Shown: in pieces, positions 1,901-57,242 of the stretch
Layout of the letters: each line of letters begins with the position of its first letter
Position numbering within the stretch: position 1 is the first letter of the stretch
Origin: Eledone cirrhosa
Lineage: Eukaryota
Length of the DNA: 64,000 nucleotides
Assembly (NCBI GenBank): GCA_964016885.1
Contig: OZ024753.1
Coordinates: 38,688,001-38,752,000 of the forward strand
Direction: 5' to 3'
Notes under the pieces: model-generated
The model's database searches: none
The model's input: the letters and a program-made list of their open reading frames with translations, nothing else
Told to the model about the DNA's origin: nothing
Translations under genes and position numbers: made by a program

Positions 1901-1992
1901 TTTCTGTTGCCTACATAGAGCACTCTTTTTTCCTGTTGCCTACATAGAGCACTCTTTTTTCCTGTTGCCTACATAGAGCACTCTTTTTTCCT
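1901..1992. repeat. about 29-bp tandem repeat, 3 copies
   Basis: tttcctgttgcctacatagagcactctttt repeated three times. Confidence 0.9.

Positions 1993-2873: not shown

Positions 2874-2877
<4 letters not shown>
2671..2877. mobile_element. family A palindromic element, diverged subfamily
   Basis: Long arm gtggtaagataccaggtggacc...; short inverted arm gtcgaaacggctggagctcagccgtcggggtcc...ttccta followed by (TA)n. Confidence 0.8.
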
Positions 2878-2942
<65 letters not shown>

Positions 2943-2972
2943 AGATCAAAAGATGGTTAAAAGAGTTCCATG

Positions 2973-3043
2973 TATTTTATTATGCGCATTTCAAAAACAA
3001 ATATCATCATGCGATGACATTTGCGTTTTCGTCAGATAAAATA
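2973..3043 (-). ncRNA. type I hammerhead ribozyme (family P)
   Basis: Reverse complement of the motif at 4857-4927. Confidence 0.85.
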
Positions 3044-4247
3044 GGGAGACATGATATATTAAGGTTAAAAGACACTTGTGAATAGTGCAGTTTTAAATCA
3101 ACATATGAAAAGTAGTTTTAGATTGATGTGTGATATTGGGGAAAAAATTGAAGGGGGGGGGGTTGGAAAGGATGAAAAAGAGGAGGAGATGAGAGTAAAG
3201 AATGGAGGGGGAGGAGTATAATAAGGAAGGATGAGATAGGAGGAGAGATGGGTGATAGAGAGAGAGAGATAGCTTTTATAACTGAGAAAAATATATATTG
3301 TTTTACAGAGAGAGGTTAAAAAACCGCTGGAAGATAATATATAAATTAAAAGAATTTGAAAATTAACGAAGAGAAAAATTTTAAGAATAATGTTAAATTA
3401 AGGTTTGTATATTGAAGGGTTTAATAATATGTGCGATGAAAAGAAATTGTTAATATGTATTAAGAATAATATTAAGTTAAGGTTTGAATATTGAAGGGTT
3501 TAATAATATGTGCGATAGAAAGAAATTGTTGATATGTATTATTAAAAAAAATATAAAAATAGTAATGTAATTAAGGATATATTGTGAAAAGAAGTAGAAG
3601 AGTGGATGAATTAATATATGTAAATAGTTTGTTTACAAATGAGCGCAGAAAGCAAAGAAGGAGATAGTGTTTAAGGAGAAGACCTTAACATCAAAATATG
3701 TATGTTTATGAAGTATTTCCTAATGGTAATAATATAATGTAATAAAGGAGATTAGTTAGGGTTTAAGTTTGATTTTATGTGTTGTGATGTGTAATATGTA
3801 GAAGTTAGATGAGCATGAAAGGGAGAAAAAAATAATGTATTGAGGATGAATAATCTAACGTAAAAAAAATTGTTTATGTTTACGAAGGATTGTTCAAGGT
3901 GATACTATAAAGTATTTAAAAGGGTAATAGTTAGTTTTATGGCCAGTGAGAGGATGGAAGAAGGAAGAGTGGATATATTGTGGTGAGTAATAATAAGAAT
4001 TGCGAAGTATCTAGGAAGAAAAGGTACAGATTAGAGGTTAGAAATTAAAAGAAAAAAGGAAAAAAAAGGAAGAAAGAGAAGTGATAAATAGGAGTGATAT
4101 AGAATGAGTAACTAGTATTATATAATGTATAATAAATAACATTGAAATAAGGTAGAAAGATGAGTATATTTTTAAAGAAATATATATGTATATATATATA
4201 TATGTGCCTTTGAGAAAAAGGATTTTAAATTGGTAAAGTATTAGATA

Positions 4248-4411
4248 TTAGCTGTATACTTTATGGAATGTTCTGTGGAATTTATGCAAGCAGAGAGAAA
4301 ACAAGTCAGTGCGTCTATTTATTATAGAATCTAAATTAGATATAATGGTAAATTTCTCACATAAACAGAGATTACATATCTTGGATAGAGAGGCATTCAA
4401 GTATGGAGACA
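4248..4411 (-). pseudogene. C-terminal fragment of a Penelope-like RT/GIY-YIG ORF
   Basis: LSPYLNASLSKICNLCLCEKFTIISNLDSIINRRTDLFSLCLHK resembles the CxLCxxEK...(L/I)NxRxxLxSxCxH tail recalled for Naiad/Neptune-type PLE endonucleases. Confidence 0.7.
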
Positions 4412-4856
4412 ATTTCTTTCCATCGCACATATTATTAAACCCTTCAATATTCAAACCTTAACTTAATATTATTCTTAATACATATTAACAATTTCTTTTC
4501 ATCGCACATATTATTAAACCCTTCAATATACAAACATTAATTTAACATTATTCTTAAATTTTTCTCTTCGTTAATTTTCAAATTCTTTTAATTTATATAT
4601 TATCTTCCAACGGTTTTTTAACCTCTCTGTAAAACAATATATTTTTCTCAGTTATAAAAGCTATCTCTCTCTCTCTCTCTATCACCCATCTCTCCTCCTA
4701 TCTCATCCTTCCTTATTATACTCCTCCCCCTCTCATCTCCTCCTCTTTTTCATCCTTTCCAAACCCCCCCTCAATTTTTTTCCCAATATCACACATCAAT
4801 CTAAAACTACTTTTCATATGTTGATTTAAAACTGCACTATTCACATCATGTCTCCC

Positions 4857-4927
4857 TATTTTATCTGACGAAAACGCAAATGTCATCGCATGATGATATT
4901 TGTTTTTGAAATGCGCATAATAAAATA
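4857..4927 (+). ncRNA. type I hammerhead ribozyme (family P)
   Basis: TATTTTAT-CTGACGA-AAACGCAAATGTCATC gcat GATGATATTTGTTTTT-GAAAT GCGC ATA-ATAAAATA; 8-bp stem I, long stem II, palindromic minimal stem III, AUA site after 4919. Confidence 0.9.
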
Positions 4928-5053
4928 CATGGAACTCTTTTAACCATCTTTTGATCTTATATATTATTTATACTCCAGTCCTACAAACTGTAGAGTGCTA
5001 CTTATCCGATATCTGCATTGCTTTATTGTACTACAATAAAACTCACCTCCTAC

Positions 5054-5128
<75 letters not shown>

Positions 5129-15115: not shown

Positions 15116-15535
<420 letters not shown>

Positions 15536-15558
15536 TATATATATATATATACACATGT

Positions 15559-15614
<56 letters not shown>

Positions 15615-20620: not shown

Positions 20621-21158
20621 GATAAATCTACCAAGAGTTTACGGTAGTGTCCAATCCGTATGAAGAACTCAATGTATTCCGGATATCATGGAAAGAAGAG
20701 ATGTAATGAAAATCCACTTTCGGTGAAAGATAAACGGTATACAGAGTCAAGATAAAATATTAAACAAATAATGAATAAACAATTCCTTATATTAAACAAA
20801 AAAAGTTCATTATTTAACGATCGTTTCTAGGGTATATATGTGTTATAATTGGTATGCATATTCAACAGATCTATGTACAAAATTATACAAAATTATACAA
20901 ATTATCAAGATTAAATATACATACCTAACACATATATACGCCGTCTTCAGAAATAATTATTTCTGAAGACGGCGTATATATGTGTTAGGTATGTATATTT
21001 AATCTTGATAATTTGTATAATTTTGTATAATTTTGTACATAGATCTGTTGAATATGCATACCAATTATAACACATATATACCCTAGAAACGATCGTTAAA
21101 TAATGAACTTTTTTTGTTTAATATAAGGAATTGTTTATTCATTATTTGTTTAATATTT

Positions 21159-21160
<2 letters not shown>
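20618..21160. mobile_element. family B palindromic element with two hammerheads (20809-20957 -, 20956-21104 +)
   Basis: Perfect inversion centred on aaataattattt, which is stem I of the ribozyme; CTGAAGA...GAAACGATCGTT. Confidence 0.88.
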
Positions 21161-21193
<33 letters not shown>

Positions 21194-27483: not shown

Positions 27484-28997
27484 CAATGTCTTTACTTCTA
27501 TCTTCGATACGATATACAAGAAGTTATATTATTAGAGCAAAACTCCATAAATATACTGTCAGGGAGTAAAATTGATAACCTTCTAAAAATTATTTGAAAT
27601 TAAACTCATATTAAGTACGATGGGGAATTAGTGGCTGAGTTAAAAATATGAAAGATTTATAAGTAAGGTTATAGAGTCAATTGGTCACACAGTTTCAATT
27701 AATGATGTGTAATAAACGTAGACCGTATTTCTGGAAGCGGTAGTTGTTTGTTGATAGTTTATGATCATTGGGTGGTGTTTTTGTTACTCTGGTGTGGTAT
27801 AGTGTGGTGATTGTCGCGTGGTGTGTTGTGGTGTGGGGTGGTGTGCTATGGTGCGCTGTGCTGTGGTGTAGTATGGTGTGCTATGGTGTGCTGTGGGGTG
27901 CTATGGTGCGCTGTGCTGTGGTGTAGTATGGTGTGCTATGGTGTGCTGTGGGGTGATGTGGTGTGCTGTGGTGTGGTGGTGTTTGTGGTGTGGTGGTATT
28001 GGTGGTGTCTGTGGTGGTGGTGGTGGTATTGGTGGTGTTGGTGGTGGGGTTGATCGTGGTTGGTGGTGGTGATGTTCGTGTTCGTGTTGATGGTAGTAGT
28101 GATGGCGGTGACGGTAATGGTGGTGGTTGTGGTGTTGTGGTGTTGTGGTTGATGGTAGTGATTGTGATGATGGTAACGATGGAGAGGTGAACATGTAGTT
28201 ATAAAAACATCATAGTGGTGGTGTTGTGGTTGATAGTGGTGATGGTGGAGTGTAGAAGAGACAATGTAGTTCAAAAGACATAAATGTCTGTCGGAAGGAA
28301 TCATAAGATCTGATTAATTGACGTAAGAAACTAATATTGATTAGCTTCGGAATCTATTAAAATCTATTTTGAAAGAATTCACATGTTTCATTACCTCATC
28401 AATAACAATTAAAGCAATAACCCGTGGAAGGTGCGTGGCTTAGTGGTTACGGTTTTGGGCTCTCGATCGCAAGGTTGTGAGTTCGATTCTAAATGTCTAA
28501 AGTCTGTCTCGAGACCAGAGTTTCACCAGGCTGGTATTTATCCCGGTTTTCTTGCCCGTTGCGATGGACAGGACGCCAGTCCATCGCAAGGTTAAACCCC
28601 AAGCTATTACTGGTATACATACGCAGCTGAATATACTGGAACAACGGGAAATGTAGTGTTTGGCTCGAGAACACAAAGTGGTCCAATTTGACTTTCATCG
28701 ATTAGGAGTCGATAAAGAAAGTTTCAGTCCAGTGTTTAGGTAACACATCTTCCACTGCATCAAAGAAGTGACGGTCTGTGTGTGTCACCACGACAGCATA
28801 TATATGTTAGATAATTCCGAAGGAAAAGCAAAGGAAAAAAGAGTGCTCTATGTATAGAACAGAGCTATTTAATTAGAAATTGAACAGCACAAAATCTAAC
28901 TACACCATTACCAAAGGTTTCTGGATCACAGACGATAATAATATACGTCTGGATCGGTCGTCAGACACAGATGTTATATTTTGTGTTATATATTGTG

Positions 28998-36800: not shown

Positions 36801-36804
<4 letters not shown>

Positions 36805-37315
36805 GGAGGTGAGTTTTATTGTAACACAATAAAGCAATGCAAATATCGAAATATCGGATAAGTAGCACTCTACAGTTTGTAGGATTGGAGTATAAATAAT
36901 ATAAGATCAAAAGATGGTTAAAAGAGTTCAAAGTATTTTATTATGCGCATTTCAAAAACAAATATCATCATGGGATGATATCTGCGTTCTCATCAGATAA
37001 AATAGGGAGACATGATATGAAGCTTATGTTGATTTAAAACTTCACTGCTCACAAGTGTTTTTTAAGCTTCATATCATGTCTCCCTATTTTATCTGATGAG
37101 AACGCAGAGATTCCCATAATGATATTTGTTTTTGAAATATGCGCATAATAAAATACTTGGAACACTTTTAACCATCTTTTGATCTTATATTATATATTAT
37201 ATATATATATAAGATCAAAGATCAAAAGATGGTTAAAAGAGTTCCAAGTATTTTATTATGCGCATTTCAAAAACAAATATCATTATGGGATGATATCTGC
37301 GTTCTCATCAGATAA
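36801..37315. mobile_element. family P short palindrome plus a third arm; hammerheads at 36934-37004 -, 37085-37155 + and about 37250-37315 -
   Basis: Same sequence family as 2937-5055, here with a CTGATGA core. Confidence 0.85.
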
Positions 37316-37659
37316 TATATATATATATATCAGTTTGACAATCGCCACAGACAGACGAATGCGAGAAAGTTCTCCAACCCAAGTTAACCAGGAATCTTTA
37401 AAATTCTGCCCAGTGAAGTTAATTAAGAACTTATTGGATCTACCAACTCATAATATTATAATATTATTAAATTAAATCAAAAATTTGTTAACACTACAAG
37501 TGAAGTCATTCTTTTCCTTTTTTTCAAATATATATAACTGTACCAAGGATCTCACACATTTTCCAATATATATATATATATATATCCGGGAGCTTCCACG
37601 GTAATGGTCGCATTCTTTAAGGGTATGTCAATATTTATTTATAAAACTACTCTATATTA

Positions 37660-56515: not shown

Positions 56516-57242
<727 letters not shown>

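What the first reader, a model, noticed from the sequence alone, without database searches (positions are those of the whole stretch)
2937..5055. Anchor copy: hammerhead palindrome contiguous with a Penelope ORF C-terminus
On the minus strand, a CNLCLCEK...INRRTDLFSLCLH peptide (4248-4411) is followed by about 1.2 kb of 3' sequence and then the hammerhead at 2973-3043. An inverted copy of the last about 600 bp forms the other arm. This is the only coding link in the window between the short palindromes and an autonomous element. The short copies at 36801-37315 belong to the same family.
Basis: partly seen in the sequence, partly recalled or inferred. Interest (0 to 1): 0.75.

Follow-up and report, generated by a model that had tools for sequence, protein, structure and literature searches.

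The report
Hydra-clade Penelope two-armed insertion
This is a broken, back-to-back copy of a very abundant Penelope-type jumping gene carrying a predicted self-cutting RNA motif; its thousands of sister copies end at fixed points, which suggests the enzyme copies one RNA twice from two start sites and that the short palindromes are likely copies of the capped front end of the element's own RNA.

Summary
Observation confirmed. The peptide is the endonuclease end of a Hydra-clade Penelope-like element (PLE), not a Naiad; no selenocysteine. The family has 10,324 exact hammerhead-core matches and some uninterrupted ~800-aa ORFs with a telomerase-like RT fold. The window copy lacks RT, so it is a sibling of the short palindromes, not their source.

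Family-wide footprints:
(1) Two fixed 3' ends ~89 nt apart; two-armed insertions use each once (46 of 51; 27 of 28 in an unbiased sample).
(2) The two arms share subfamily variants.
(3) About 5,050 arms stop at one base 71 nt upstream of the ribozyme core, against 26 at a control site and 227 at the ribozyme cut site. G is the commonest extra base there, and such arms never paired with longer ones (0 of 28, P=0.0014).

Best reading: both target strands are primed on one uncut RNA, and the short palindromes are run-offs to the capped start in the upstream pLTR. Long copies need a multimeric or circular template. No RNA data were available. This scan noted the same ideas before on other DNA (this genome and others). 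New family of a known clade, with a testable mechanism.

The parts
2877..2938 (.). (TA)n target tract, left flank
2937..4409 (-). long arm (~1470 nt), 5'-truncated sense copy ending at the tail-less 3' end E1
4248..4409 (-). last 53 codons and stop of the Hydra-type endonuclease (CxxC..E..N..CxH)
3044..4247 (-). 3' UTR / pLTR, with an ~81-bp tandem duplication at 3381-3541
3106..3106 (-). A of C|ATATG: base at which ~5,050 genomic arms begin; inferred capped transcription start
2973..3043 (-). type I hammerhead, long stem II, palindromic stem III; predicted cut after 2981
4409..4410 (.). head-to-head junction of the two arms, 1-2 nt microhomology
4410..5055 (+). short inverted arm (~643 nt) ending at the tailed 3' end E2; has a 22-nt and a 12-nt deletion
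4816..4816 (+). inferred start-site base in the inverted arm
4857..4927 (+). second hammerhead, identical to the first
4965..5054 (+). ~89-nt tail between ends E1 and E2
4972..5001 (+). small bulged hairpin motif just past E1; a related motif lies just past E2 in the 5' UTR of full-length copies
   Evidence: weak as a fold on its own
5055..5103 (.). (TA)n target tract, right flank
36801..37021 (-). tailed (E2) arm of a short two-armed insertion, other subfamily
37022..37190 (+). tail-less (E1) arm of the same insertion, beginning at the inferred start site
37204..37319 (-). separate single E1 arm in the adjacent TA tract, 5' side of stem I cut short

Best explanation
The element is a 5'-truncated, RT-less, two-armed insertion of a high-copy Hydra-clade Penelope-like retrotransposon, likely made when both strands of a (TA)n tract were cut and each primed reverse transcription on the same uncut element RNA at two fixed start points ~89 nt apart. 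Shown: clade motifs, the two ends, one use of each per insertion, shared variants between arms, and a sharp 5' end in the pLTR. Inferred: the cDNAs were joined at their 3' ends by microhomology. The short hammerhead palindromes arise when the same two start points are used in the upstream pLTR of the mRNA and RT runs off the capped 5' end. The window copy and most full-length copies came from a downstream pLTR of a multimeric or circular RNA. The ribozyme probably needs a dimer to cut and is not the end-defining step.
For: Monomer ~3,555 nt: 5'UTR-ORF-3'UTR-hammerhead-E1-tail-E2. ORF motifs RWI, D/NKT, FDIASYY, YRDD, CxCx5C, LIY..YFG, CxxC..E, N..CxH match Craig et al. section 11 and the supplementary alignment. 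Model pLDDT 89.3; best fold match telomerase RT, Z 16.2, rmsd 4.8, 291 aligned. Ends: 46 of 51 well-covered two-armed insertions are E1+E2, plus 8 of 8 less-covered ones; 27 of 28 in the position-ordered sample. The tail is on the short arm in 32 and the long arm in 22 of 54. In the window copy each arm holds sequence the other lacks, so neither is a fold-back of the other. Arms of one insertion differ by 2.4% against 6.0% between insertions (34 pairs, 0 of 2000 permutations). 5' hot spot: 20 of 96 arms. Base before it genome-wide: G 2410, T 1905, A 736, native TTTC 5275. Control C|A site 26; ribozyme cut site 227, of which 8 of 20 inspected are mutations. Hot-spot arm paired with a longer arm: 0 of 28 pairs, P=0.0014. 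In vitro precedent: a Poseidon PLE cuts and extends both strands, starts internally at two sites bounding the tail, and uses unprocessed RNA (PMC11167929).
Against: The cap reading of the G is partly confounded. Of the first 30 G loci, by my reading, only 12 are clearly untemplated; 8 can be templated by the partner arm, 5 are a central G:C that may be the partner's native C, 3 are local duplications, 1 is a point mutation and 1 is genomic. 18 of 32 full-length copies have an upstream pLTR reaching past the inferred start and only 1 starts on it, so a second template class is required and is unobserved. Exceptions to one-of-each: 3 E2/E2 and 2 E1/E1; of 7 non-contiguous pairs left out, 3 were E2/E2. 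Arm similarity could come from gene conversion or single-master bursts, and the partner was the nearest sequence in only 11 of 34 pairs. The two hairpins are not more stable than shuffles (z -0.5 and -0.1), and their likeness (44 of 5000 shuffles) ties with one other place in the monomer. The first stem II pair is A-U, not the usual G-C. The GIY-YIG domain has no Pfam hit in this family, only weak hits in homologues.
Confidence: 0.72

Rival explanations
1. The short palindromes are an independent non-autonomous family (retrozyme- or SINE-like) with their own short masters, mobilised in trans.
For: Thousands of copies share one 5' end. Many loci of the 36.9-kb subfamily are short. Animal retrozymes are proposed to derive from pLTRs (bioRxiv 10.64898/2026.07.22.740005, abstract, introduction and start of methods read).
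Against: The same 5' end occurs in all subfamilies. Junction sequences differ from copy to copy. No tandem arrays of the short unit were seen in the loci inspected. The variant hammerhead is also found on ORF-bearing copies (L043, L051, L057). One full-length copy begins at the same base (L139).
Confidence: 0.13
2. The 5' hot spot is an RT pause or a microhomology-favoured joint (palindromic CATATG, TA-like), not a transcription start.
For: Perfect palindromes centred on CATATG exist. T is common at the -1 base. A small hairpin lies just 3' of the site.
Against: A pause would act on each arm separately, predicting about 5 hot-spot+longer pairs; 0 of 28 were seen. G is the commonest -1 base (48%), against 7 of 26 and 21 of the first 100 at the two control sites.
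Confidence: 0.12
3. The inverted arm is a fold-back or self-primed copy of the first cDNA, and the tail is trimmed later by the endonuclease at an internal TA-like site (as suggested in PMC3846280 and PMC8557442).
For: E1 lies in a TATATATT run that resembles the target. Arms share variants. Palindromic junctions occur.
Against: In the window copy the long arm has ORF sequence but no tail, and the short arm has the tail but no ORF. The tail is on the shorter arm in 32 of 54 cases. Trimming of a fully tailed intermediate is not excluded.
Confidence: 0.1
4. The element is a Naiad selenoprotein element.
For: (TA)n targeting and Cys-rich motifs only.
Against: The EN is C-terminal, a canonical hammerhead is present, and there is no in-frame TGA in three uninterrupted ORFs.
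Confidence: 0.01

Closest known systems
Hydra clade of C-terminal EN+ Penelope-like elements, incl. Hydra-1_Obim (Craig et al. 2021, PMC8557442; section 11, passages and supplement parts 2, 53, 58 read)
   Same: Single ORF, RT then EN, RW-x and DKT motifs, CxCx5C linker, CxxC and CxH around E and N, canonical type I hammerhead, (TA)n target, pLTR and inverted truncated copy.
   Different: A distinct family: monomer ~3.55 kb against <3 kb (Hydra-1_Obim 2507 bp); RWI instead of RWK; an ~80-aa Asn-rich, low-confidence insert before the linker; ~1.2-kb 3' UTR; a different hammerhead with a 36-nt stem II; tail ~89 nt against 30-40; >10,000 copies. Comparison with Hydra-1_Obim was by eye, no identity computed.
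PAc (Poseidon, Anolis) in vitro mechanism (Frangieh et al. 2024, PMC11167929; parts 1-2 of 4 read)
   Same: Two RT start sites bounding the tail, both strands extended, uncut RNA as template.
   Different: Here the evidence is genomic. It adds strict one-of-each use per insertion and a fixed 5' run-off point. The start sites lie upstream of the ORF rather than inside it.
PLE hammerheads and animal non-LTR retrozymes (PMC4209133, passages read; bioRxiv 10.64898/2026.07.22.740005, part 1 of 5 read)
   Same: Type I motif with palindromic helix III, enlarged helix II, opposite-strand pairs 100-700 bp apart.
   Different: The short copies here are not tandem arrays; they are one- or two-armed end fragments.
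Adineta vaga Penelope elements (PMC3846280, passages read)
   Same: Inverted pLTR with optional tail, palindromic junctions, Inr-like site in the pLTR, Asn-rich insert between RT and EN.
   Different: That paper explains the inversions by self-priming on an antisense template; the data here favour two primings on a sense RNA.

Membership tests
EN+ Penelope-like element | Telomerase-related RT in a single ORF | tested here: met
   Uninterrupted ~800-aa ORFs in 3 of 37 loci; best fold match TERT Z 16.2, rmsd 4.8, 291 aligned
EN+ Penelope-like element | GIY-YIG endonuclease | tested here: inconclusive
   Motif LIY..YFG and downstream R/H/E/N pattern align with the published Hydra EN; no Pfam hit in this family, homologues E 9e-4 and 0.012; the domain was not folded and searched alone
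EN+ Penelope-like element | pLTR partial tandems, inverted 5'-truncated copy, one-sided tail | tested here: met
Hydra clade | C-terminal EN with CxCx5C linker | tested here: met
   CNCPVKNKC at residue 658, EN motifs at 677-788
Hydra clade | CxxC and CxH flanking conserved E and N | tested here: met
   CNLCLxE at 758, N..CLH at 777-788; this is the window peptide
Hydra clade | RWK and DKT motifs | tested here: met
   DKT in L154, L163 and most copies (NKT in L156); RW present, with I in place of K
Hydra clade | Canonical hammerhead; (TA)n insertion | tested here: met
Hydra clade | Phylogenetic placement with reference Hydra sequences | not tested
   Reference sequences were seen only as text in the supplement; no tree was built
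Naiad | N-terminal EN; no canonical hammerhead | tested here: not met
   EN motifs are C-terminal and the hammerhead is present
Naiad selenoproteins | In-frame UGA at Cys positions | tested here: not met
   ORFs translate without stops under table 1; SECIS was not searched
Type I hammerhead ribozyme | Conserved core and three stems, with variation that keeps pairing | tested here: met
   337 copies: core bases 97-100% (the 3' half was the search anchor), N7 varies C/T, six stem II positions vary only by wobble-compatible one-sided changes, no two-sided changes
Type I hammerhead ribozyme | Self-cleavage | not testable with these tools
   needs an in vitro assay of monomer and dimer
Non-LTR retrozyme | Tandem arrays of hammerhead units | tested here: not met
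   The 30 short-variant loci show single or head-to-head arms (display of L055-L056 partly cut)

The most novel reading that the evidence does not exclude
A Hydra PLE writes one RNA molecule into both ends of a cut (TA)n tract from two hairpin-marked internal start sites, one site per strand. When those sites are used in the upstream pLTR, thousands of tiny hammerhead palindromes result that record the capped start of the mRNA. Full-length copies that carry a longer pLTR come from a multimeric or ribozyme-made circular RNA. One family would thus show both template classes, and explain the PLE tail, the inversion and the short hammerhead 'bloom' by one mechanism.
Probability: 0.5. Interest if true: 0.72.

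Novelty: new member of a known kind. Interest (0 to 1): 0.5.

Why it matters
How Penelope-like elements make their inverted arms, one-sided tails and pLTRs is still open; only one has been reconstituted in vitro. This family supplies thousands of young insertion products with three sharply defined end points and uninterrupted ORFs. That makes specific predictions testable: where the cap is, where RT starts, and whether one RNA serves both strands. It also warns that many genomic hammerhead palindromes may be by-products of an autonomous element, not separate mobile families.

Tried and rejected
- Rfam: no hammerhead family among the 150 listed window hits (of 334), nor among the 8 local hits. 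The motif rests on my descriptor, folding and variation.
- Pfam and PDB sequence searches gave nothing for this ORF. Fold searches were filled by RT matches, so the EN fold is untested.
- RNA: no RNA holder listed.
- Ribozyme cut site as the 5' end of short copies: rejected (227 against 5,051).
- A peak of arm ends near monomer position 2800 is an alignment break with a diverged subfamily, not a real end.
- Six 'partner upstream' rows for short arms: I read two as native arms, three as spurious short hits and one as real (L112).
- Private shared variants in the window copy's own arms: none beyond subfamily level.
- Target-site duplication cannot be read in (TA)n.
- Paper searches found no report of this family or of a cap-derived G in PLE insertions. 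The library lacks most subscription papers, and the Schostak 2008 promoter paper was seen only as cited.
- Earlier-finding look-ups by sequence and by nearby place were empty.

Full report
Observation. Positions 2937-5055 lie between two (TA)n tracts. The minus strand carries the last 53 codons of an ORF (4409-4251, stop 4248-4250), ~1.2 kb of 3' sequence and a type I hammerhead at 2973-3043: 8-bp stem I, CUGACGA, a 36-nt stem II hairpin, GAAA, palindromic UGCGCA, AUA (fold z -2.69). From 4409 an inverted copy of the 3' end runs to 5055. It repeats the hammerhead at 4857-4927 and goes ~89 nt beyond the end of the direct arm. The arms differ by 6 substitutions in 560 bases; the nearest of 130 other copies is 1.5% away and the median 5.0%. 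Rfam does not recognise the ribozyme.

Identity. A genome search with the ORF end and 3' UTR gave 2,173 candidates; the 40 scored were 95-100% identical. Upstream of the peptide these copies carry an RT, a CxCx5C linker and endonuclease motifs. A search with the ORF start gave 612 candidates. Of 37 loci fetched, three hold an uninterrupted ATG-to-stop ORF of about 800 aa with no TGA; each has some substitution in a conserved motif, so activity is not shown. The monomer is ~3,555 nt: 80-nt 5' UTR, ORF, 3' UTR, hammerhead, end E1, tail, end E2. A model built on 117 sequences has pLDDT 89.3 with one disordered Asn-rich stretch (585-648). Its best structural matches are telomerase RTs (Z 16.2, rmsd 4.8, 291 aligned); the EN fold was not tested alone. 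The motifs are those that Craig et al. 2021 (PMC8557442, section 11 and supplement) give for the Hydra clade, with RWI in place of RWK. Naiad is excluded by domain order and by the hammerhead. The published Hydra-1_Obim is shorter and has a different hammerhead, so this is another family. A 36-nt stretch of the ribozyme has 10,324 exact matches and 0 for the reversed control. Homologues at 35-42% identity are widespread (373 clusters at E<=1e-30). The host is not given; earlier notes call the genome octopus-like, which I did not test.

Hammerhead. Across 337 distinct copies the core bases are 97-100% constant, though the 3' half served as the search anchor. Subfamily changes fall on N7 and on six stem II positions, each keeping a Watson-Crick or G-U pair; there are no two-sided changes. 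Palindromic helix III suggests cleavage as a dimer (PMC4209133, passages). The first stem II pair is A-U. Cleavage is untested.

Two fixed 3' ends. Copies end at E1 (102) or E2 (81), or run on into the 5' UTR (33). Among two-armed insertions, 46 of 51 with coverage >=0.85 have one E1 and one E2; 3 are E2/E2 and 2 E1/E1. The 8 with lower coverage, the window copy among them, are all mixed. In 60 loci taken in positional order along contig C1, 27 of 28 contiguous pairs are mixed, and the exception has an interrupted tail. Seven non-contiguous pairs were left out (4 mixed, 3 E2/E2). The tail is on the shorter arm in 32 and the longer in 22 of 54. In the window copy each arm has sequence the other lacks, so a simple fold-back cannot explain it. 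The two arms of an insertion are of one subfamily and differ by 2.4%, against 6.0% between insertions (34 pairs; 0 of 2,000 permutations). The partner was the nearest sequence in only 11 of 34, and conversion is not excluded. Frangieh et al. (PMC11167929) showed in vitro that a Poseidon PLE extends both strands and starts at two internal sites bounding its tail, on uncut RNA. The pattern here is what one RNA serving both strands would leave (inference).

A fixed 5' end. 20 of 96 arms in the unbiased sample begin at or within a few bases of the A of C|ATATG, 71 nt upstream of the ribozyme core. Genome-wide, the base before it is G in 2,410, T in 1,905, A in 736, and native TTTC in 5,275. A C|A site 19 nt upstream gives 26 non-native cases (its pattern is more subfamily-specific). 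The ribozyme cut site gives 227, with 8 of 20 inspected being mutations. Arms ending here never paired with an arm reaching further upstream (0 of 28 pairs; P=0.0014). In all loci held, 75 partners ended at or 3' of the site; of 6 flagged otherwise I read one as real. An extra G is the known mark of a copied cap (recalled, not from a call), and Craig et al. state that Penelope's start site lies in the pLTR. The G is only partly diagnostic: of the first 30 G loci I read 12 as untemplated, 8 as possibly templated by the partner, 5 as an ambiguous central pair, 3 as duplications, 1 as a mutation and 1 as genomic. The best reading is a capped start, with the short palindromes made by using E1 and E2 in the upstream pLTR of the mRNA. 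The pair at 36801-37190 fits: its E1 arm starts at this site, its E2 arm is shorter, and it is of another subfamily whose hammerhead variant also occurs on ORF-bearing copies.

A second template class. Both arms of the window copy extend past the start site. 18 of 32 full-length copies have an upstream pLTR that does so too; 1 starts on the site and 13 start downstream (2 rows dropped as misaligned). These need a multimeric or circular RNA, or a template jump. A circle made by the ribozyme was proposed in PMC4209133. No RNA evidence was obtained.

Hairpin signal. A bulged hairpin motif follows E1, and a related one follows E2 in the 5' UTR. By eye, similar motifs with different upper stems occur in the published Hydra consensus ends. 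In this family alone the support is weak: 44 of 5,000 shuffles score as well, the score ties with one other site, and folding z is near 0. This lead came from earlier notes.

Verdict. The element is an ordinary dead copy of a new, very abundant Hydra family, and it identifies the parent of one family of short hammerhead palindromes without being their source. The value lies in the family-wide footprints. The scan had noted the two-ended pattern and twin hairpins elsewhere in this genome and the capped start in other genomes. I found the 5' hot spot and the G before seeing the latter notes; the notes are not counted as support.

Noticed in passing
window 12490(+), 37668(+), 7739(-): Hammerheads of another related family (stem III TATGTA/TATATA, ~30-nt stem II) in short TA-flanked fragments.
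   Followed up: no
window 18460(-), 1839(-), 58902(-), 63612(-): Further hammerhead motifs of other sequence types; 58902 has a 62-nt stem II and sits in a palindrome; 1839 and 18460 share their 3' flank.
   Followed up: no
window 2236, 2742, 9011, 13133, 45145 (-); 30863, 31085, 51452, 54573 (+): A different short palindromic repeat family carries a hairpin of the same shape as the one after E1 (nine copies), hinting at use of a Hydra-type enzyme.
   Followed up: partly
window 1903-1990 and 28865(-): A ~28-bp tandem unit next to the 1839 hammerhead, and a similar GCTC..GAGCACT hairpin motif at 28865.
   Followed up: no
window 56580-57161, 15130-15614, 20752-21161: Long near-perfect palindromes (291, 238 and 205 nt arms).
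   Followed up: no
L156:4270-4520 (protein residues ~576-657): Asn-rich (24%) low-confidence insert between thumb and linker, absent from most homologues in the 9-sequence alignment; recalls the N-rich inserts of Adineta Penelopes.
   Followed up: partly
L025:644-1505(+): Remnant of another PLE type (thumb plus CxxC linker and GIY-YIG, Neptune-like by my recall) 2 kb from a family copy.
   Followed up: no
L024 minus strand, 531-aa ORF near 540-2140: ORF resembling a Helitron Rep/helicase (label recalled, not from a search).
   Followed up: no
L077, L086, L278, L280: Junctions with repeated short re-copies of the first 8-16 nt after the inferred start, as if RT re-primed several times at the RNA 5' end.
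   Followed up: no
L022, L131, L144, L145, L149, L150, L151: 7 of 32 full-length copies begin 17-37 nt upstream of the inferred start; unexplained.
   Followed up: no
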